DNA from: a virus
Taxonomy: Duplodnaviria; Caudoviricetes
Virus record (IMG/VR): IMGVR_UViG_3300049005_000023
Span: 1 to 55,510 of that record
Reading direction: 5' to 3' (one strand)
DNA length: 55,510 nucleotides
Within the stretch, counting starts at the first letter, position 1; each line of letters starts with the position of its first letter. Positions 344-52,937 of the stretch are shown piece after piece. The position numbers were made by a program, and so were the translations under genes. The notes below the pieces were generated by a model. It was not told the origin of the DNA and ran no database searches. It saw only the letters and a list, made by a program, of their open reading frames with translations.

Positions 344-583
344 ATGGCGGTTATCTGGACGGTGTACAGCGGGACGTTGAGCGGTCCGGCATCACGGACA
401 ACCCAGGACCCGGCCCAGGCCTTGCAGTGGGCGCGCGGGCTCGGACCGGAAGCCTTCGTGACGAATGACCGCGGCGGCGAACGGCGATTCGTCTGGTCGC
501 CAGAGTCCGACCGGCGCTGCGTCGGCGAGCTGCACAACGCGGTCATCGACCGGGCGCTCTCGCTGTCGGCGGTCTCCGGGTGA
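344..583 (+). CDS. Hypothetical protein (79 aa)
   Basis: Strong RBS; GTGA overlap with whiB. Confidence 0.7.
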   Translation: MAVIWTVYSGTLSGPASRTTQDPAQALQWARGLGPEAFVTNDRGGERRFVWSPESDRRCVGELHNAVIDRALSLSAVSG

Positions 584-921
584 GTGCCCACCGGGAGCAC
601 CGCCGCCGCGTTCTGGCGCGGTGGGCCGACTCGCTGAACGGCGCCTGGCGCCGCCGGGCGGCCTGCAACCCGGCGACCGGCGTTGCCCCGGACCCGTCCC
701 GTATCCCGGCGTTCTTCTCGCTCGAGGATGCCGACACGGTGTTCGATCTGCAGAAGCAACGTGAGGCGGCGCTGTTCTGCAACACGGCGTGTCCCGTGCA
801 GGCCGAGTGCCTGCAGTTCGCGCTGAACGTAGACGAGGAGTACGGCGTCTGGGGTGGTACTACGGAGACTGAACGGCGCTTGCTGGCGCGGAAGGTCCGC
901 AAAGGTCGGCAGCCAGTCTAG
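580..921 (+). CDS. whiB: WhiB-family Fe-S transcription factor
   Basis: Four Cys (AAC...FC..ACPV..EC), GVWGG turn and TETERR. Confidence 0.93.
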   Translation: MSAHREHRRRVLARWADSLNGAWRRRAACNPATGVAPDPSRIPAFFSLEDADTVFDLQKQREAALFCNTACPVQAECLQFALNVDEEYGVWGGTTETERRLLARKVRKGRQPV

Positions 922-1366: not shown

Positions 1367-1804
1367 ATGCTCGAGCTCTACACCGACGGATCCGCCGGCC
1401 CGACCAACCCCGGCCCGGGCGGATGGGCGGTCACCACGCAAACCGAGATGGTCCTGACCGGCTGGTCGGCCAGTACGACGAACATCCGGATGGAAGGCAT
1501 CGCGCTGCTGGAGGCCTTCGGCTGGCTGGCCGGACGACCGGGCACCATCCACACCGACAGCCGCCTGTGGGTGGACACCATCTACCAGTGGGCGCCGCTG
1601 TGGTCCGGGCGCGGGTGGCGGAAGGCCAACGGCGAGACACCGGCCAATCTGGAGCTGGTGCAGAACCTCTTTGAGGCGTCGGTTCGCGGTGTCGCACAGG
1701 CCGTATGGGTCCGAGGCCACAACGGCAACCCAGGCAACCGCCTGGCCGACGAGTGGGCGAACAAGGCCCGTAAGCAAAGGCTCGGACGTGCCCGGGTCTA
1801 CTGA
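1367..1804 (+). CDS. rnhA: Ribonuclease HI
   Basis: YTDGS..NPGPGGW, TTNIRME, HTDS, WVRGHNG.PGN..AD motifs; ATG 1367 after ACCGGGAG. Confidence 0.95.
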   Translation: MLELYTDGSAGPTNPGPGGWAVTTQTEMVLTGWSASTTNIRMEGIALLEAFGWLAGRPGTIHTDSRLWVDTIYQWAPLWSGRGWRKANGETPANLELVQNLFEASVRGVAQAVWVRGHNGNPGNRLADEWANKARKQRLGRARVY

Positions 1805-3590
1805 TATCCGCCTGCACTGGGTGCAGACGCTGGACGACGCGTTTGCGCTCAAGAGGTGGTTAGGCGAGCGCCGCCCAGGCGGCTGGCTTGGCGTGGATAC
1901 TGAATCCGGCGGCCTCGACTGGTGGCGGGACAAGCTTCGGCTCGTTCAGTTCGGCGACCGGCATCAGGGCTGGGCGATCGAGTCGTCGGAGTGGATGGGC
2001 CTGATCAAGGAGTGTATGACGGCGTACGAAGGCCCGCAGCTGCTCTGGAACGTGAAACATGACCTGCACTTCATGGAGGTCAACGGCATCCCGACGAAAC
2101 GTTGGTGGATGCACGACGGCCGCGCGATGACACATTTGCAGGAACCGTGGCGACGCACCGGGCTGAAGCCAACCGCCACCCGCAAGCTTGGTCAGTGGGC
2201 CGGGTACGGCGAGGCGCAGCTGAAGCAGGCGATGATGGCCGGCGGCTACGGCTACCACGACATCCCCATCGAGCTGTTCTGGCAGTACTCCGCCTTCGAC
2301 ACCGTCATCACTGCGCAGACCGGTGAGGAGGTCTGGCCGGGCATTGAGCAGTCATACCGCTCGATCTACGATCTGGAGCTCGCGTCGACGTTCGTGCTGA
2401 CCGACATGGAACGCCGAGGCATCATGACGGACCGGGACTGGATGGTCCGGCATCTGGATGAGTGGACCCAAGCTCAGGACGTGATCGCGCTCCGGCTGCG
2501 AAACGACTACTGGATCGGTAACCCGGCATCGGACCGCCAAGTAGAGAAGTCGTTGCGGGATCTGGCCGGCTGGGTGCCGATCGTCTTCACGGACAAAGGC
2601 AACATCAGCCTGGAACGCGAAGTACTGCAGGGGATCGGGCATCCGATAGCCGACCTGGTGGTCGAGTGGCGCCAGCTGAAACGGCTGAGGGAGTACGCCT
2701 CCAGCCATCTGGAGCTCGCCGGTCCTGATGGGCGCCTGCACTGCAAGATCAACCCGCTGGGCACCCGCACTGGGCGCGAGTCGGCGAGCTCTCCCAATTT
2801 GCAGAACCTACCTCGCGACGACAACCGGATCCGGAACGGGTTTATTGCTTCGCCCGGTACAAAGCTTTTATTTGCCGATTATGATCAAATAGAAGGCCGA
2901 TTGTTTGCCTCTTTCAGCGGTGATGTAAATATGCTGGCAAGCATTAGATACGGAGATGAGATGACGGGCCGTGGTTACAGCGGCTACGACATGCACTCGA
3001 TGGCAGCCCGGATGATTTTCGGGATCGGGGTGGATCAGCCGGTCCCGAAAACACACCGGAACAAGGCAAAGACTGGGCAGTTCTCCAAGATCTATGGGGT
3101 CGGACTGGATAAGTTTGCCGCGCGCAACGGTATGACGCTGGATGAGGCGCGGGCCTTCTTTGCGGTGTACGAGGGGCAGTTTCCGGAGACCCGGAAATCC
3201 GGGTTCCAGTCCCGTATCACCAAGGAGCTGATCGACCGGGAGTGGGCCGAGGGTGAGGCCTACGTACTGACGGCGTACGGCCGAAAGGAGCCGTGCTACC
3301 CGAGCCAGGCGTACAAAGCCTTGAACTACAAGATTCAGGGCACCGCGGCCGACGTGCTGAAAGACCGGAAGGTTGCCCTGAGCAAGACCTGGCTGGGCGA
3401 GTGCATGCTGCTGAGCATTCACGACGAGGTGATTTTTGAAATCCCGGAAGACTCCGTAGCCGAAGCCGTACGAACAGTCCGAGAGACGATGCCGGAGCGA
3501 GACAAATTCCAGGTCCCCCTAACTGTTGGGATCGCAATCGGGGATCGGTGGGGCGAGAAGACCGACGTACCGGCATCCTATGCGGCATGA
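1788..3590 (+). CDS. polA: DNA polymerase family A (3'-5' exonuclease plus polymerase, no 5'-3' exonuclease)
   Basis: ExoI VDTES, TRTGR.S..PNLQNLP, motif A ADYDQIEGR, motif B RNKAKTGQF..IYG, IQGTAAD, motif C IHDEV. Confidence 0.96.
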   Translation: MPGSTDIRLHWVQTLDDAFALKRWLGERRPGGWLGVDTESGGLDWWRDKLRLVQFGDRHQGWAIESSEWMGLIKECMTAYEGPQLLWNVKHDLHFMEVNGIPTKRWWMHDGRAMTHLQEPWRRTGLKPTATRKLGQWAGYGEAQLKQAMMAGGYGYHDIPIELFWQYSAFDTVITAQTGEEVWPGIEQSYRSIYDLELASTFVLTDMERRGIMTDRDWMVRHLDEWTQAQDVIALRLRNDYWIGNPASDRQVEKSLRDLAGWVPIVFTDKGNISLEREVLQGIGHPIADLVVEWRQLKRLREYASSHLELAGPDGRLHCKINPLGTRTGRESASSPNLQNLPRDDNRIRNGFIASPGTKLLFADYDQIEGRLFASFSGDVNMLASIRYGDEMTGRGYSGYDMHSMAARMIFGIGVDQPVPKTHRNKAKTGQFSKIYGVGLDKFAARNGMTLDEARAFFAVYEGQFPETRKSGFQSRITKELIDREWAEGEAYVLTAYGRKEPCYPSQAYKALNYKIQGTAADVLKDRKVALSKTWLGECMLLSIHDEVIFEIPEDSVAEAVRTVRETMPERDKFQVPLTVGIAIGDRWGEKTDVPASYAA

Positions 3591-3601
3591 CATATACGTG
3601 C

Positions 3602-3632
3602 TTGACACGGTATCTATAGCATGGTTATATCG
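3602..3632 (+). promoter_or_regulatory. Promoter (perfect TTGACA -35, imperfect -10 near 3625-3633) with degenerate CTATAG-N5-TTATAT operator, driving the pentamer-repeat RNA and RAMP gene
   Basis: TTGACA at 3602-3607; same architecture as the other operator-containing promoters. Confidence 0.7.
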
Positions 3633-3639
3633 TCGTATC

Positions 3640-3706
3640 GACATGGCCGAGCTAGTCGGGCCGAGGTCAGGCATGGTACGGCGCGCCGCGTCGGGGCCAG
3701 GCGAGG
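3640..3706 (+). ncRNA. Pentamer (GGY-like + NN) repeat tract 1, putative guide RNA
   Basis: 13 in-phase units: GAC-AT GGC-CG AGC-TA GTC-GG GCC-GA GGT-CA GGC-AT GGT-AC GGC-GC GCC-GC GTC-GG GGC-CA GGC-GA, then GG. Confidence 0.8.
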
Positions 3707-3714
3707 AGAACACA

Positions 3715-3755
3715 GGACGATCGGCAAGCACCAGAGTTCGAGCCTCTGGCGTCCA
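3715..3755 (+). ncRNA. tRNA-like mini-structure (acceptor-like stem plus T-arm) between the two tracts; putative processing signal
   Basis: GGACG (3715-19)/CGTCC (3750-54) stem; CCAGAG/CTCTGG stem closing a 7-nt TTCGAGC loop. Confidence 0.6.
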
Positions 3756-3837
3756 CGCTGGTCAGGGCACGGCAAGTCGGTGTTTGGCGTTGCAAGGCCC
3801 GGCAAGTCTCCGCATAGCAGGGCTCCGCAAGGCAAGG
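3756..3837 (+). ncRNA. Pentamer (GGY-like + NN) repeat tract 2, putative guide RNA
   Basis: 16 in-phase units: CGC-TG GTC-AG GGC-AC GGC-AA GTC-GG TGT-TT GGC-GT TGC-AA GGC-CC GGC-AA GTC-TC CGC-AT AGC-AG GGC-TC CGC-AA GGC-AA, then GG. Confidence 0.82.
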
Positions 3838-3861
3838 GCACCACAACAACCGGGAGAAGTA

Positions 3862-4440
3862 ATGATCAAGTTCCGTATCGACATTCAAGGCACAGCGCCG
3901 CTACTGATGCACAGCAGCCGCTTGTCCAACCCGCTTGACCCCGCCACTAAGGCGCTGAAGAAGGTCACAGGGAAGCGCAGCAAAACCGACGAGGACCACG
4001 CCGAAGCGTCCCGCTTGGAGCATGCCGGCGGGCTCTACATCGATGCCGACCTCGGCCCATTCGTACCGGCTGAGAACATCAGCCGGAGCTTGGTGGACGG
4101 CGCGAAGCTGTCCAAGCGCGGAGTCAAGGTGACCCGTGGGCTGTTCATCGAAACAGACGTGAACGCGCTAGTTTACCGAGGACCCCGCGACGTGGAAGGG
4201 CTGTGGAAGGACGAGAATTTCCGGCACATGGCTTCGGTCAAGGTCGGCACGTCCAGAGTGATGCGCTGCCGCCCGCACTTCAAGGATTGGCAGGTCTCGG
4301 CAGACGGCCTGCTCGACGCCAACATCCTGGATCTGGACGAGCTGTCGGACATCGCGACCACTGCCGGTCAGGTCATCGGGCTCGGTGACTGGCGTCCGCG
4401 CTTCGGCCGCTATACCGCAACGATCACCGAGCTGAAGTAA
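3862..4440 (+). CDS. Stand-alone Cas7/RAMP-like RNA-binding protein (192 aa)
   Basis: N-terminal strand IDIQGTAPLLMH, P..NI..SL helix, V.R.RP.F..W hairpin and C-terminal glycine loop AG..IGLGDWRPRFGRY typical of RAMPs; ACCGGGAG RBS. Confidence 0.78.
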   Translation: MIKFRIDIQGTAPLLMHSSRLSNPLDPATKALKKVTGKRSKTDEDHAEASRLEHAGGLYIDADLGPFVPAENISRSLVDGAKLSKRGVKVTRGLFIETDVNALVYRGPRDVEGLWKDENFRHMASVKVGTSRVMRCRPHFKDWQVSADGLLDANILDLDELSDIATTAGQVIGLGDWRPRFGRYTATITELK

Positions 4441-4988
4441 TGGCACCGTTCGAACCGATCGGTCCTACGGCACGCTGGAAAACCGTTTACGAAGAGGTTC
4501 TGATCAAGAAGCGCCGGGATCAGATCGCCACGTATGAAGAGATCGGCGAGGTTCTAGGGCTGCACCCGGAAGATGCGCGGCATACCATTCAGATGGTCGT
4601 ACGCCGGGCAGCCAAAGAGCTACTGCTGCGCAACGATACTGCGTTGGAGGCAATCAACAACGTCGGGTATCGGCTGGTCATGCCGGACGAGCACACCGGC
4701 CTTGCACGTCGGCAGCAGAGACGTTCCAGCCGGGCACTGCAGCAGGGACACCAGCAAGTCACGCACGTCGACTTCACCAAGATGGATCCTGAAGCCCGCA
4801 AGGCAATAGAGACAATGGCGAACGCCTTTGCGATGCAGATGGAGTTTAACCGTCGTCTGGACGTTCGGCAGCAAAACCTGAAGAAGGCGTTGAACTCGGT
4901 GGTCAAACGGCAGGATCGCACGGAGGAAGAAACCCGACAGCGCCTCGAAGATCTAGAGCGGAAGATCCGCGAGTTGGGCGACAACTAA
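4440..4988 (+). CDS. Winged-HTH plus coiled-coil protein, translationally coupled to the RAMP gene
   Basis: TYEEIGEVLG helix, NNVGYRLV wing, C-terminal heptads; TAATG overlap. Confidence 0.65.
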   Translation: MAPFEPIGPTARWKTVYEEVLIKKRRDQIATYEEIGEVLGLHPEDARHTIQMVVRRAAKELLLRNDTALEAINNVGYRLVMPDEHTGLARRQQRRSSRALQQGHQQVTHVDFTKMDPEARKAIETMANAFAMQMEFNRRLDVRQQNLKKALNSVVKRQDRTEEETRQRLEDLERKIRELGDN

Positions 4989-34060: not shown

Positions 34061-35999
34061 CAGGCTGCGGTGGTTGAGTTCCATTCGGGGCGGGAGGCTG
34101 CGGCTGATTCGGGTCTGCTGGTGGGATCGGCAGGTTCCCCGGGTGCACGATGATCGGCGCCGGCGGAGGCTCGGGTGCGGGCGGAGGCTCTGGCATCCCG
34201 AGGAAGTCCGCGACCGCGTCCTTGTCTCCCGTGGCATCAAGCAGCTGGTTCGCCGCCTCAAAATCGCGCTGCTGGATCCGCTCGATTTCCTCTAGCACCG
34301 ATTCGATCGGCATCCCGGCGTTCATCAGCATCCGGATCGCCGTTTCGATGCTGACCGCCTTGGCGGCGTACAGCGCAGTGACCTGCGTGACAGCCGCCTG
34401 CTGGTCCTGCGGCAGGAAACTGCCCATGCCCACCTCGGTGTGGATCCACTCCTTCGGCACCTCACCGACGTCTTCGCCAGCGGACTGTGCGGCGAGGAAC
34501 ATGCGATGCGCGAACTTGAGCATCAGCGGGTACTTCTCGGCGCGAACCAGCCGCATCCCGCGAATCAGGGCATCCGTCGGGCCGAATCCGAGCTGAAGCG
34601 CAACGCCGGACGGAACTTCGCTCGGCTTGATCCGGCCCAGCAACGCCTCGGACACCCGGCTGTTGGTGGACAGTCGCTTCAGCAAGAACTCGATGTACCC
34701 CATCAGCGCGTCCAGCGCCTTAGAGGTATCCAGCACGTCCATCTTGCCTTCGCCGGTCTCCAGAATCTCGCCCGGTCGGTAGGTGAGCATGGACCGGCCC
34801 TTCTGGTCCCGGGCGACGGATGCGCCTTGCAGAGCCAGAATGGGATGCCCGGTGGTTGCGCTAGCGGCCGACAGGTCGGTGTCGGCCGAGCTCAAGTCGT
34901 CCAGGATCTGCAGCACGGTGGCGACCAGGCTGCGGCCGTAGTGGTTCAGCAGCGACACGGTGTTCGGAACGTGAACGACAGGGATGAAGTCGATGTGCAG
35001 ATCCTGGCGCTTGACCGGCTGGCCCTCCTCGTCCAGCTCGTAGATCGCCGTACCCTCGGTCAGGTCGTCGATCGAGCGGTTGCTCTTGTCGACCAGCCAC
35101 GTTGCATCGGTGTAGTAGCAGGTTTTCGTGGACGGGTTGTCGTTCCAGGGGTACAGCCGCTGGATCCGTCCGACCGCGTCCCTACTGTCGCCGGAGAACA
35201 GCTGATCGCCAGCGCCAAGCAACCGCCGCGGCGTCCCGGCACGCTCGGCCGGCTCGATGTCGCCGAGCTCCCAGGTGATCCGGCGAATCCGGCACCGGGT
35301 GCCCAGCGGTTCGTTCGGGTCTTCAGGAACCTCCCAGGCGATGTGCACCCGCTCGGGGTAGTCGTCCTCGTTGGTGTCGGTCAGTACCGGAAAGTAGAAC
35401 GCCGGATCCCAGACACGTAGCCGTGGACGCTTCTTGTCCGCCGACCAGCCGAGCGAGTAGACCCCGTCGCCGAGCCCGACAGACAGCCGTTCGGTCTCGA
35501 TCATTTTCAGCCCGAGGCGCTCATCGGTGGCCCACTGCCGCAGGAAGTCCTGCAGATCCATCGCGGCCTGAGCCTCGCGCCGTCGGGCTTCTTCGTCGGG
35601 GTCCGGCTGTGGTGCCGGTTCTGGGTTTCCGCTGAGATCTGTCTCTGGCGATTCCGGCGGCTCCTCGAGCGCGAGCTCCTCCGCGCCTTCAGTGACGATC
35701 TGCTGGTTCTCGCCGAGCAGCGCGTTGACAACGGTTTCCACCAGCAACGCGGCGTCGCCGTACTCGCGCCGGTCGTTGATCTCCAGCCGGTTACCTGCGA
35801 AGAACTCCCGCCCTGCGTTGTCCTGGTAGGCGCGCAAGATCGCGTACGCCTGCAACCTGCGGAAGTGCTCAGGCCCGGCCCAGTCGGGCGGGCGGAAACC
35901 CACGCCTTCGCCGATCTGCATCCGATTGCCGAAATGGCGCTTGAAGGAGATCGGAGTCCAGGCATCAAAGACGATTTCGCGCGGGTCAGCAGTGTTCAC
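34050..35999 (-). CDS. Portal protein
   Basis: Follows TerL; GDGV, WDP..YFP, IPVVHVPN...HYGRS, PSG.AL...F. Confidence 0.88.
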   Translation of the reverse strand: MNTADPREIVFDAWTPISFKRHFGNRMQIGEGVGFRPPDWAGPEHFRRLQAYAILRAYQDNAGREFFAGNRLEINDRREYGDAALLVETVVNALLGENQQIVTEGAEELALEEPPESPETDLSGNPEPAPQPDPDEEARRREAQAAMDLQDFLRQWATDERLGLKMIETERLSVGLGDGVYSLGWSADKKRPRLRVWDPAFYFPVLTDTNEDDYPERVHIAWEVPEDPNEPLGTRCRIRRITWELGDIEPAERAGTPRRLLGAGDQLFSGDSRDAVGRIQRLYPWNDNPSTKTCYYTDATWLVDKSNRSIDDLTEGTAIYELDEEGQPVKRQDLHIDFIPVVHVPNTVSLLNHYGRSLVATVLQILDDLSSADTDLSAASATTGHPILALQGASVARDQKGRSMLTYRPGEILETGEGKMDVLDTSKALDALMGYIEFLLKRLSTNSRVSEALLGRIKPSEVPSGVALQLGFGPTDALIRGMRLVRAEKYPLMLKFAHRMFLAAQSAGEDVGEVPKEWIHTEVGMGSFLPQDQQAAVTQVTALYAAKAVSIETAIRMLMNAGMPIESVLEEIERIQQRDFEAANQLLDATGDKDAVADFLGMPEPPPAPEPPPAPIIVHPGNLPIPPADPNQPQPPAPNGTQPPQPVAS

Positions 36000-51494: not shown

Positions 51495-52937
51495 ATGACC
51501 AATTACCAGAGCACTAGCTACAACGTCCGCGAAGACCGCCCCGACGGCGCATCGCCGTACGCAACGGCGGAATTCGTCACCACGCAGGACCCAACCGCAC
51601 CCGACCACGTCCTGCGGGTGTCTGCCGCTGGAATAGGGTTCACCCTTGAGGATGTCCGCGGGCTCCAAGCCTTCCTGAACGACCAGTTCGGGCGGAACCG
51701 GGAGCGTGTACTCAGCATCGACGTGGACGACGAAGGTCACGGCTCGATGGTGCTCGCGTCCCGCGACCCCGACGGCTCGGTCACGCTTGAAAAGGACTGG
51801 ACTCTCGCGCCTGGGGACGTTGAGGTTCTGACTACAGCAGGCACGACGTTCACGCGGACAGCTCCGGATACGGCCTGGAACCCGCTTGAGGCAGTTCCGC
51901 CGGTGCAGCCGCGCCAGTGCCCGGTCATCTACAACGGCGTGCAGTGCTCTGAACCCGAAGGCCACCAGGACAGTACGCCGGAGCGACCTGGAACGGTACA
52001 CATGTTCGGTCGTTCCGCCCAAACCGGAGACGGGGCGGTCACGCCCCCAGCCAATCCCCACGTCCAGCCCGTTGCACCGGGCGGGGAGCAGGCTGCCGAG
52101 AGTGCGACTGCTGGGCAAGCAGCAGGAGAAACCACCCCGTCTCCCACCCCCGACGAGCAGCCGTCCAAGAAGCCGACCCGGCGCAAGAAGGAGGAAATCG
52201 CCTACGACCGTGCTCTCGAGGCCTTCCGCGCGCAGCCGAACAGCCAGCTGGAGTACACCGACCTGGTGAAGGCCGCCGAGGCGCTGCGGAAGCGGTTCCC
52301 GGACAACTCGCGGCTGGAAGCTTACGACCGCCACGTCCAGGAGCAGGACATCAAGTGGCTGACTGATCAGCCCTCCGGGCCGAAGCCTGCCGCCCCACCG
52401 CTGCCGGAGGCTGTGGGCACCTCCGACGCCGGCTCTGAGCCGCACTTCGCCCCCGAGCCCGTGGCTGCACAACCCGCACCGTTCCAGCCTCCAGCGCTTT
52501 CGATCCCAGCACCCCAAGACGTCTCCCCCGAAGAGTCTGCCGCCGCGCAGGCCTTCCCCTGCCAGCACATCTCCGACGTCTCCGGCCGTCCCTGCATCCG
52601 CGCCGCCGGCCACGAGCTCACTAACCCGCCGAAGCCCCACATCTACGCGCCGCTCCCGGATGGGCAGTCGCTACCGGTTCCGGCGTTTGTCCCGCCGCTG
52701 CCCCCACAGCCAGAGACCCCGGCCTTGAGCCAGCAGGGCTTCGCTTCATGGCCGGTCGGACAGCCGGTTGTCGACGGCCAGGGTTTCACGCAAGCCCCGA
52801 TTCCGCCGTTCCAGATCCCGCAGCCCACTGCCGAGACGCAGGGCCAGCAACTGCTCAGCTTCCAGGTCCCGCCAACGCCGCAGGGCGCTGAGCTCCAGCC
52901 GCCGGCTCCGGCCGCGCCGCCGTGGGGGCAGCAGTAA
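51495..52937 (+). CDS. Hypothetical Pro/Gln-rich protein with two C..C...GH motifs
   Basis: AGGAG RBS; low complexity. Confidence 0.75.
   Translation: MTNYQSTSYNVREDRPDGASPYATAEFVTTQDPTAPDHVLRVSAAGIGFTLEDVRGLQAFLNDQFGRNRERVLSIDVDDEGHGSMVLASRDPDGSVTLEKDWTLAPGDVEVLTTAGTTFTRTAPDTAWNPLEAVPPVQPRQCPVIYNGVQCSEPEGHQDSTPERPGTVHMFGRSAQTGDGAVTPPANPHVQPVAPGGEQAAESATAGQAAGETTPSPTPDEQPSKKPTRRKKEEIAYDRALEAFRAQPNSQLEYTDLVKAAEALRKRFPDNSRLEAYDRHVQEQDIKWLTDQPSGPKPAAPPLPEAVGTSDAGSEPHFAPEPVAAQPAPFQPPALSIPAPQDVSPEESAAAQAFPCQHISDVSGRPCIRAAGHELTNPPKPHIYAPLPDGQSLPVPAFVPPLPPQPETPALSQQGFASWPVGQPVVDGQGFTQAPIPPFQIPQPTAETQGQQLLSFQVPPTPQGAELQPPAPAAPPWGQQ

What the first reader, a model, noticed from the sequence alone, without database searches (positions are those of the whole stretch)
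3707..3755. tRNA-mimic spacer that could let host RNases cut the guide precursor
Between the tracts lies GGACG-atcggcaagca-CCAGAG-TTCGAGC-CTCTGG-CGTCC-A. This forms an 11-bp coaxial acceptor/T-stem-like helix with a 7-nt TTCGA T-loop, a GG-containing linker and a discriminator-like A. Tract 2 starts on the very next base. There is no anticodon arm. Inference: RNase P and RNase Z-type processing releases individual guides, replacing a Cas6.
Basis: inference. Interest (0 to 1): 0.72.

Follow-up and report, generated by a model that had tools for sequence, protein, structure and literature searches.

The report
tRNA-like punctuation in a phage guide-RNA array
A small tRNA look-alike sits between two guide RNAs of a recently described phage RNA-guided silencing system (VIPR), and most likely lets the host's own tRNA-trimming enzymes cut the guides apart.

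Summary
The hairpin is real. It spans 3715-3755: a 5-bp acceptor-like stem, an 11-nt linker with GG, a 6-bp stem with a TTCGAGC loop, then A.

A covariance model built without it finds it as the only strong match in the 55.5-kb phage genome (47 bits, E 2e-8; next 18.6 bits).

The flanking "tracts" are period-5 GGY/NN repeats, the vrRNA guides of a VIPR system (bioRxiv 10.64898/2026.04.26.720920). The gene at 3862-4440 is a Vipr protein (PDB 36pp, SUSP1 Vipr, E 3e-36).

The same minihelix recurs in 12 Vipr loci, including Gordonia phages MakoManhole and Trine and Mycobacterium phage LittleE:
- 29 full copies plus one weak one in 11 loci, and a cut copy in L011.
- The universal tRNA T-arm bases are near-invariant, and 10 of 11 stem pairs covary.
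- 29 of 30 copies abut a guide tract.

In a related array, hammerhead ribozymes hold the same position.

Best reading: a tRNA-like punctuation mark cut by host RNase P and RNase Z. No RNA data exist, so cleavage is inferred.

The system is known. tRNA-like separators are not mentioned in the four VIPR papers I could search. Verdict: a new variant of a known kind.

The parts
3602..3631 (+). Possible promoter of the vrRNA-vipr operon: TTGACA at 3602-3607, then an imperfect -10 (TTATAT/TATATC) 17-18 nt later
   Evidence: Read. The consensus scan did NOT call it (0 promoter-like sites in 3300-4100). Homologous loci have clearer promoter-like hexamers at the same place (my reading). Inference only.
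3645..3709 (+). vrRNA tract 1: 13 period-5 units of GGY/NN type; 7 of the 13 are exact GGY, most others NGY
   Evidence: Units printed in register, counted. The same kind of tract lies beside Vipr genes in related loci. Definition of vrRNA from bioRxiv 10.64898/2026.04.26.720920.
3710..3714 (+). Short A-rich spacer. The predicted RNase P cut lies between 3714 and 3715 and would make the 3' end of vrRNA 1
   Evidence: Short non-repeat spacers precede the minihelix in relatives. The cut site is inference.
3715..3755 (+). tRNA-like minihelix. Acceptor-like stem 3715-3719/3750-3754; linker 3720-3730 with GG at 3723-3724; T-like stem 3731-3736/3744-3749; T-loop 3737-3743; discriminator-like A3755
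   Evidence: fold; leave-one-out model, 47.0 bits, E 2.1e-8; covariation; conserved T-arm bases and GG.
3756..3840 (+). vrRNA 2: CGCT leader, then about 16 period-5 units that run into the vipr 5' UTR. The predicted RNase Z cut after A3755 would make its 5' end
   Evidence: units. The CGC after the discriminator is kept in 24, 23 and 26 of 29 elements. The cut site is inference.
3862..4440 (+). vipr gene (P0002, 192 aa), a RAMP-family guide-binding protein
   Evidence: PDB 36pp 'SUSP1 Vipr protein', E 3e-36, residues 5-188; 38% identity to the phiSUSP1 gene, with H17 and the C-terminal GDWRPRFGR loop identical; phrog_4652, unknown function.
4440..4988 (+). vap-like accessory gene (182 aa)
   Evidence: 33% identity over 106 aa, pairwise E 1e-16, to MakoManhole gp77, annotated 'DNA binding protein'; 29% over 82 aa, pairwise E 2e-6, to the gene after vipr in phiSUSP1. 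No Pfam family above cut-off.

Best explanation
The window is a complete, integrase-less phage genome of an actinobacterial host type. It carries a VIPR locus laid out as: possible promoter, vrRNA 1, tRNA-like minihelix, vrRNA 2, vipr, vap.

The minihelix copies the acceptor/T-arm half of a tRNA together with a GG 'D-loop' stand-in. I propose it acts as a punctuation mark on the primary transcript. Host RNase P cuts at its 5' edge (3714/3715) and releases vrRNA 1 with a 3'-OH. Host RNase Z, or another tRNA 3'-end route, cuts after the discriminator A3755 and gives vrRNA 2 a 5'-phosphate end starting CGC. Vipr then coats each freed repeat tract.

Shown here: the structure, its conservation and covariation, its fixed position beside tracts, and the VIPR identity of the locus.
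Inferred: transcription as one precursor, the two cuts, and the enzymes.
For: 1. VIPR identity.
- P0002 matches solved SUSP1 Vipr (E 3e-36).
- Period-5 GGY/NN tracts flank it, as in the published definition.
- A vap-like gene follows.

2. The element is a family.
- Model R1 finds 20 full copies (E <= 1.7e-4) in 8 of 141 sources searched (window plus L003-L142), plus a cut copy at the start of L011.
- R1 finds 10 more copies in three cultured phages that were not used to build it: MakoManhole 3, Trine 3, LittleE 4 (one of the LittleE copies is weak, E 0.026). It finds none in phiSUSP1.
- A plain regex scan gave 20 hits against 1 in reversed or complemented controls of equal size.

3. tRNA likeness (29 elements).
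- G53 29, T54 29, T55 28, C56 29, purine-57 29, A58 29, C61 29.
- Linker GG in 28.
- Purine discriminator in 29 (A 16, G 13).
- The stems vary but stay paired: 98.2% of 220 cells, with 10 of 11 pairs changed on both sides; 0 of 500 shuffles reach the score; slid controls pair at 37-58%. The 28-row set gives 98.7%.
- The helix stack was 11-13 bp (mostly 11-12) in the 17 family members among the 20 regex hits.

4. Position.
- 29 of 30 copies have a tract within 70 nt: both sides 18, upstream only 7, downstream only 4.
- In Trine the order is minihelix, tract, minihelix, tract, minihelix.
- 16 of 17 gaps between successive minihelices give 67-131 nt RNAs (my arithmetic). The published vrRNAs are about 100 nt.

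5. Equivalence with ribozymes.
- In L016 (Vipr 43% identical) three hammerhead-core units sit between tracts. One reaches Rfam's Hammerhead_II cut-off (37.1 against 37 bits).
- The preprint reports hammerhead-interspersed arrays confirmed by sRNA-seq.

6. Precedent.
- Engineered crRNAs flanked by tRNA-like 't-elements' are released precisely by RNase P and RNase Z in Haloferax, without Cas6 (PMC6546412, passages).
Against: - No RNA evidence: no RNA run is listed for this DNA.
- Folding energy alone is not significant, and the naked 225-nt precursor is predicted to fold otherwise.
- The acceptor stem is 5 bp and the stack 11 bp, not the tRNA's 7 and 12.
- There is no 3' RCCA, and the -1 base is A, not U.
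- Rfam's tRNA and tmRNA models miss the window's element and most relatives. Only the two L012 copies gave sub-threshold tmRNA-end matches.
- vrRNA 2, like the last tract in L012, L052 and MakoManhole's upstream array, has no minihelix after it. Its 3' end must be made another way.
- Published 'staggered' arrays, and those seen in L037 and L073, have no separators at all.
- 17 of the 20 rows in the first covariation count were picked by a regex that demanded pairing, and the alignments were fitted to the model. The percentage paired is therefore partly built in. The double changes, the 3 extra L010 copies and the 10 copies in cultured phages are not.
Confidence: 0.6

Rival explanations
1. Structural cap or handle. 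The minihelix stays attached to the guide, as does the pseudoknotted 3' tail of SUSP1 vrRNAs. It would stop Vipr filament growth from running into the next guide, or shield the 3' end from exonucleases. No RNase P or RNase Z cut would be involved.
For: Published vrRNAs carry an invariable structured 3' tail. In the window the minihelix follows tract 1 directly. In L057 a single tract is followed by one minihelix.
Against: - Four copies stand at array starts with no tract upstream, in L010, L052, MakoManhole and Trine.
- The last tract of several arrays has none.
- LittleE guides keep a separate small hairpin between tract and minihelix. This suggests the tail and the minihelix are different modules.
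- A cap needs no invariant T-loop bases or GG. Those are the features tRNA enzymes read.
- Hammerheads, which do cut, hold the same slot.
Confidence: 0.2
2. The released minihelix is itself the product. It would be a tRNA-like small RNA acting as a decoy, or as a substrate for a host tRNA-directed enzyme such as a CCA-adding enzyme, a modification enzyme or a tRNA-cutting defence nuclease. Its place between guides would be secondary.
For: There is strong purifying selection on T-loop bases and GG. Some copies lie next to each other with almost no tract between them (L010 4302 and 4357). Phages often carry tRNA-related decoys (general knowledge, recalled).
Against: Among the Vipr-family and repeat-tract loci fetched here, every locus with the element has a Vipr-like gene beside the array: 9 clear, 3 weak. 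29 of 30 copies abut a tract; no other phage contexts were searched. There is no anticodon, no G3:U70 identity (GU at that pair in 2 of 28), and the stem sequences are variable.
Confidence: 0.1
3. A relic or chance feature: a decayed tRNA gene, a tRNA-derived attachment site, or a fortuitous hairpin.
For: Folding z-scores are unremarkable. Many phages integrate at tRNA 3' ends (general knowledge).
Against: - No tyrosine or serine integrase is present in the complete genome.
- There are up to 9 copies per array with compensatory changes.
- The leave-one-out E-value is 2e-8.
- The exact 24-mer is absent from other viral contigs, so it is not a shared host tRNA core.
Confidence: 0.02

Closest known systems
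VIPR systems (Vipr protein plus GGY/NN vrRNAs), especially the hammerhead-interspersed arrays of bioRxiv 10.64898/2026.04.26.720920 (read: abstract, Results, Discussion, one Methods section, searched passages)
   Same: Vipr homologue, period-5 guide tracts beside vipr, a vap-like gene, and a structured element at each guide boundary in the slot where some arrays carry self-cleaving hammerheads.
   Different: The boundary element here is a tRNA-like minihelix with no ribozyme core, so cutting would depend on host enzymes. The words tRNA, RNase P, T-loop, Mycobacteri-, Gordonia and Actinobacteri- occur 0 times in the held text. Figures and supplementary data could not be seen.
SUSP1 vrRNA 3' tail (pseudoknot)
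   Same: A conserved structure directly 3' of a repeat tract.
   Different: Unrelated sequence and fold. R1 finds no minihelix in the phiSUSP1 locus. SUSP1 tails follow every guide; the minihelix also stands before first guides and is missing after last ones.
Engineered tRNA-flanked guides: Haloferax t-element icrRNAs (PMC6546412, passages) and polycistronic tRNA-gRNA arrays (titles and abstract openings seen in the listing; details recalled)
   Same: Guide RNAs flanked by tRNA or tRNA-like units so that RNase P and RNase Z release them without a Cas6-type nuclease.
   Different: Those are man-made and mostly use whole tRNAs. This is a natural, phage-encoded array that uses a cut-down 40-nt mimic.
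tmRNA tRNA-like domain
   Same: Acceptor stem plus T-arm, a GG-bearing D-loop stand-in, and no anticodon arm. The two L012 copies give sub-threshold matches to the ends of Rfam tmRNA (20.3 and 16.6 bits against a cut-off of 47).
   Different: The two halves are contiguous. There is no tag reading frame, no pseudoknots and no G3:U70. The window's copy gives no tmRNA match.
Natural tRNA punctuation and tRNA-like 3'-end signals: mitochondrial transcripts, gammaherpesvirus 68 tRNA-miRNA units, MALAT1 mascRNA (recalled, not checked here)
   Same: A tRNA shape is used to recruit RNase P or RNase Z so that a neighbouring RNA gets a defined end. In the herpesvirus case a virus does this.
   Different: Eukaryotic or organellar systems; none concerns a prokaryotic RNA-guided system.

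Membership tests
VIPR system | Vipr protein (minimal RAMP fold with G-loop) | tested here: met
   P0002 against PDB 36pp 'SUSP1 Vipr protein': E 3e-36 over residues 5-188. 38% identity to the phiSUSP1 gene, with H17 and the GDWRPRFGR loop conserved. The fold itself was not predicted.
VIPR system | vrRNA: tandem YNNGG (GGY/NN) units, 9-16 per guide, next to vipr | tested here: met
   Tract 1 has 13 units and tract 2 about 16, directly upstream of vipr. The units are degenerate: 7 and 6 exact GGY in the 14 and 13 units counted. The preprint notes frequent internal degeneracy. Tandem Repeats Finder did not report them.
VIPR system | Adjacent vap accessory gene | tested here: met
   4440-4988 is homologous to MakoManhole gp77 'DNA binding protein' and weakly to the gene after vipr in phiSUSP1.
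VIPR system | vrRNAs expressed and bound by Vipr; DNA read by the 1-nt skip rule | not testable with these tools
   No RNA run is listed. The target search was not run (see Tried and rejected).
tRNA gene | Cloverleaf with D arm and anticodon arm, 7-bp acceptor stem | tested here: not met
   ARAGORN finds 0 genes. No Rfam tRNA match at E<=10. An 11-nt linker stands in place of both arms, and the acceptor stem is 5 bp.
tRNA-like T-arm (functional likeness, not membership) | G53, T54, T55, C56, R57, A58, C61 with a 5-bp or longer stem and a 7-nt loop, stacked on an acceptor stem | tested here: met
   All seven bases are present in the window and kept in 28-29 of 29 family members. The stems covary.
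tmRNA | tRNA-like domain made of the two RNA ends, plus a tag ORF and pseudoknots | tested here: not met
   No Rfam tmRNA match for the window. ARAGORN finds no tmRNA. The element is 41 nt and contiguous.
Hammerhead-interspersed VIPR array | Hammerhead core (CUGAUGA ... GAAA) between guides | tested here: not met
   No hammerhead in 3400-4000. It is present in relative L016. Same slot, different device.
RNase P / RNase Z substrate | Cleavage at the 5' end of the acceptor stem and after the discriminator | not testable with these tools
   Recognition features are partly present: G1-C72 pair, T-loop, GG, purine discriminator, no CCA. The stack is 11 bp. No cleavage data.

The most novel reading that the evidence does not exclude
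This would be a natural 'polycistronic tRNA-guide' array. A widespread group of actinobacteriophage VIPR systems would mature their guide RNAs entirely by borrowing the host's RNase P and RNase Z, through a 40-nt tRNA mimic. That would make it the first natural RNA-guided system whose guide biogenesis rests on tRNA-processing enzymes. The released mimic might also serve as a tRNA decoy.
Probability: 0.5. Interest if true: 0.72.

Novelty: new variant of a known kind. Interest (0 to 1): 0.62.

Why it matters
VIPR was described only in 2026, as a phage-borne, pre-CRISPR form of RNA-guided DNA recognition. How its guides get their ends is largely open. The papers I could search name tails, staggered arrays and hammerheads.

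A tRNA-like separator would add a third, host-dependent route. It would show that nature reached the tRNA-guide design that genome engineers invented. It would also tie guide supply to essential host enzymes that a competitor cannot easily remove.

The architecture occurs in cultured, easily handled phages (LittleE, Trine, MakoManhole), so it is directly testable.

It also matters for annotation. Annotated protein genes in Trine (gp40) and LittleE (gp35) overlap these arrays, and tRNA finders make false calls on them.

Tried and rejected
- Attachment site or tRNA relic: rejected. No integrase, many covarying copies per array, and the exact 24-mer is absent elsewhere in viral contigs.
- Terminator: rejected. 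No U-run follows, and no terminator was called on the + strand.
- Known RNA family: Rfam gives nothing for the window's element and nothing on the minihelices of nine related loci at E<=1.
- Distant Vipr relatives from viral contigs (L003-L007) and DNA polymerase relatives showed no minihelix upstream. They were too distant to test conservation.
- RNA evidence: no RNA holder is listed for 3300-4500. The three runs are soil DNA from one study, and one may be the source.
- Other tracts in the window: a sliding count found weak period-5 signals elsewhere (about 51,560-51,630 and 34,600-34,660 on the minus strand, and others). They look like background in a GC-rich genome.
- Target prediction for the two guides by the published 1-nt skip rule was not run. 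It needs a derived pattern typed into a collection scan.
- Structure prediction of P0002 was not run. The match to a solved Vipr made it unnecessary.
- No Vipr tree was built, so the origin of the separators (single or repeated) is open.
- Cluster J phage paper (PMC3706429, searched passages): the passages shown do not mention these elements.

Full report
**1. What is at the site**

The window is one complete virus record of 55,510 bases with terminal repeats. It is about 64% G+C. It carries a WhiB gene, and its nearest named relatives are Gordonia phages. It has no tRNA gene and no tyrosine or serine integrase.

The finding lies in a 270-base gap between a DNA polymerase I gene (1671-3590) and a 192-codon gene (3862-4440, P0002).

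The quoted sequence is there:
- a 5-bp stem, 3715-3719 with 3750-3754
- an 11-nt linker with GG at 3723-3724
- a 6-bp stem, 3731-3736 with 3744-3749
- a TTCGAGC loop
- A3755

RNAfold returns this fold for the isolated element. The energy is not unusual, with z -0.96 and -1.47. In the naked 225-nt context the minimum-energy fold pairs the two flanking tracts instead. Rfam gives no tRNA, tmRNA or ribozyme match. Taken alone, the hairpin is unremarkable. The case rests on comparison.

**2. What the 'tracts' are**

Read in steps of five, both flanks are runs of GGY/NN-type units. Tract 1 (3645-3709) has 13 units and tract 2 (3756-3840) about 16. Tandem Repeats Finder missed them.

Thirteen metagenome contigs encode P0002 relatives at 33-68% identity. 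In L010-L016 and L019 the same kind of tract lies next to the gene. Many of these contigs carry several tracts.

A full-text search led to bioRxiv 10.64898/2026.04.26.720920. I read its abstract, Results, Discussion, one Methods section and searched passages. It describes VIPR systems as follows:
- a minimal RAMP protein, Vipr
- vrRNAs of 9-16 YNNGG units followed by a structured 3' tail
- a vap accessory gene
- DNA recognition by the NN positions with a one-base skip

It lists four array kinds: type II arrays, staggered arrays, hammerhead-interspersed arrays and single guides.

P0002 matches the solved 'SUSP1 Vipr protein' (PDB 36pp, E 3e-36). It is 38% identical to the phiSUSP1 gene, and the G-loop is identical. 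That gene is flanked by GGT/NN tracts with their published tails. The next gene in the window (4440-4988) resembles MakoManhole gp77 'DNA binding protein' and, weakly, the gene after vipr in SUSP1. The locus is therefore a VIPR system, and the tracts are its guides.

**3. The minihelix is a conserved family**

A regex asked for a TTCRANN loop on a stem of at least 5 bp, stacked on a 5-7 bp stem closed over a 6-15 nt linker. It gave 20 hits in 2.37 Mb (both strands of 141 sources). Reversed and complemented controls of the same size gave 1. Seventeen of the hits looked alike and were aligned (A1) to build model R1.

R1 results:

| Searched | Result |
|---|---|
| Window plus L003-L142 | 20 full matches, E <= 1.7e-4, in 8 sources: window 1, L010 9, L012 2, L019 2, L026 1, L027 1, L052 3, L057 1. 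Also a copy cut by the contig end in L011. Three L010 copies were new. |
| L076-L142 on their own | Nothing better than E 0.4 |
| MakoManhole, Trine, LittleE (cultured phages with P0002 homologues at 64%, 51% and 49.5%; not used for the model) | 3, 3 and 4 copies (one LittleE copy only at E 0.026) |
| phiSUSP1 | None |

Real tRNAs in the same loci were not matched by R1: L026 12661-12751 and L057 6528-6666. The model therefore does not simply detect tRNAs.

Model R2 was built from 28 elements without the window's copy. It scores 3712-3759 at 47.0 bits, E 2.1e-8. That is the only strong hit in the window.

**4. Why it is a tRNA mimic**

Conservation across 29 elements:

| Feature | Kept in |
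|---|---|
| G53, T54, C56, A58, C61 | 29 each |
| T55 | 28 |
| Position 57 | always a purine |
| Linker GG | 28 |
| Base after the helix | always a purine (A 16, G 13) |
| Following C, G, C | 24, 23, 26 |

The stems differ in sequence but pair. In the first set, 98.2% of 220 cells pair and 10 of 11 pairs show changes on both sides (55 cells). Zero of 500 shuffles reach this, and slid controls pair at 37-58%. The 28-row set gives 98.7% and 79 cells.

One caution applies. Seventeen rows were chosen by a regex that required pairing, and the alignments were fitted to the model. The percentage paired is therefore partly built in. The variety of pair types, the three extra L010 copies and the ten copies from cultured phages are independent of that choice.

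In the 17 family members among the regex hits the stacked helix was 11-13 bp, mostly 11-12, close to the tRNA's 12. ARAGORN is fooled twice, calling 'tRNA-Ser' in L019 and 'tRNA-???' in Trine. Rfam's tmRNA model touches the two L012 copies below threshold. No copy qualifies as a tRNA or a tmRNA.

**5. Position**

Flanks were scored for period-5 NGY units. The threshold was 8 of 14, above the 95th percentile of random 70-nt windows from the same loci. Results for 30 copies:
- tracts on both sides: 18
- tract upstream only: 7
- tract downstream only: 4
- neither: 1 (MakoManhole's last copy, after a degenerate tract)

Further observations:
- Trine reads minihelix, tract, minihelix, tract, minihelix, starting right after vipr.
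- L052 and MakoManhole open an array with a minihelix that has no tract before it.
- L057 has one tract closed by one minihelix.
- LittleE guides keep a small hairpin of their own between tract and minihelix.
- The stretches between successive minihelices are 67-131 nt in 16 of 17 cases; one is 14 nt (my arithmetic from the coordinates). The published vrRNAs are about 100 nt.

Every minihelix locus has a Vipr-like gene beside the array. Nine are clear (42-68% identity to P0002). Three are weak pairwise matches: L026, L027 and L057.

Within the closest Vipr clade the separator is not fixed. L013 and L014 (61% identical) use a different pair of hairpins, and L015 has one guide and no separator.

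**6. The hammerhead parallel**

L016 has a Vipr 43% identical to P0002. It carries three units with the hammerhead core between its tracts. One reaches Rfam's Hammerhead_II cut-off, 37.1 against 37 bits. The preprint says hammerhead-interspersed arrays were confirmed by sRNA-seq. So the same slot holds a self-cutting RNA in some arrays and a tRNA mimic in others. That is the strongest argument that the mimic is also a cutting signal.

**7. Mechanism proposed**

The steps below are inferred. One transcript runs from near 3635 through both guides into vipr. RNase P cuts before G3715. RNase Z, which acts on CCA-less tRNA ends (recalled knowledge), cuts after A3755. The conserved CGC then becomes the 5' end of the next guide.

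Engineered Haloferax crRNAs flanked by tRNA-like t-elements are released in just this way, without Cas6 (PMC6546412, passages).

Points against this reading:
- There is no RNA evidence.
- The stack is 11 bp, there is no RCCA, and the -1 base is A.
- The last guide of several arrays lacks a downstream minihelix.
- Staggered arrays manage without separators (and the preprint).
- Folding predictions for the naked precursor do not favour the minihelix. Co-transcriptional folding or Vipr coating of the tracts would have to help.

**8. Rivals**

- A non-cleaved cap or handle is possible. It fits poorly with copies at array starts and with the invariant tRNA-recognition bases.
- A function of the released mimic itself is not excluded, and it could coexist with processing.
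- Relic, attachment site and chance are effectively ruled out.

**9. Novelty**

The system is known. I searched four VIPR-related texts:
- the discovery preprint
- the cryo-EM preprint, 10.64898/2026.04.26.720927
- the satellite-competition preprint, 10.64898/2026.10.15.759431
- the intergenic-space preprint, 10.64898/2026.10.21.760802

In the first three 'tRNA' occurs 0 times. In the fourth, which I searched only for 'tRNA-like' and 'minihelix', both occur 0 times. The discovery text has no 'RNase P', T-loop, Mycobacteri-, Gordonia or Actinobacteri-.

A search for tRNA-like, RNase P, RNase Z, guide RNA, phage and array returned only engineered systems and reviews among the 15 of 30 papers listed. 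I judged these from titles and abstract openings.

On what I could see, tRNA-like punctuation of vrRNA arrays is an undescribed variant of a known kind.

Noticed in passing
L145 (Gordonia phage Trine) 3082-3360; L146 (Mycobacterium phage LittleE) 2249-2430: Annotated protein genes overlap vrRNA/minihelix arrays: Trine gp40 (locus 3091-3894) and LittleE gp35 (2063-2452, opposite strand). They are probably mis-called or start too early.
   Followed up: partly
L013 about 1080-1160 and L014 about 2700-2750, 2830-2900: In the closest Vipr relatives without the minihelix, guides are separated by two GC-rich hairpins around a conserved CACAGACT-containing stretch. No Rfam match at E<=1. This may be another processing module or an unknown ribozyme.
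   Followed up: no
L024 (about 55-nt unit repeated four times between tracts, minus strand 650-1200); L053 2210-2250, 2320-2360, 2430-2470: Other conserved structured separators or tails occur between guides in more distant VIPR arrays. Rfam finds nothing there.
   Followed up: partly
window 3826-3861 and the same place in L010, L014, L015, L052, L144: The last tract before vipr ends in AAGGCAAGG-like units followed by a CA-rich CAACAAC-like run, and it merges into the ribosome-binding region. Vipr binding here could feed back on its own translation.
   Followed up: no
L019 445-531; L145 3289-3357: ARAGORN calls a 'tRNA-Ser' and a 'tRNA-???' that are really a guide tract plus a minihelix. tRNA finders can mis-annotate these arrays.
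   Followed up: yes
L010 4302-4404: Two minihelices lie almost back to back, with only about 14 nt between the predicted cuts. This is either a guide lost from the array or a duplicated separator.
   Followed up: no
L034 6311-7008; L079 7607-9152; L136 4361-5152: Very long, almost uninterrupted period-5 arrays (300-800 nt) occur in some viral contigs, far longer than the 9-16 units of a single published vrRNA.
   Followed up: no
L057 6450-6666: About 1 kb downstream of the single guide, Rfam reports a sub-threshold tmRNA-end match (35.2 bits) directly followed by a tRNA match (35 bits, above its cut-off).
   Followed up: no
window 580-921: A WhiB-family transcription factor gene (Pfam E 1e-18). 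It supports an actinobacterial host.
   Followed up: no
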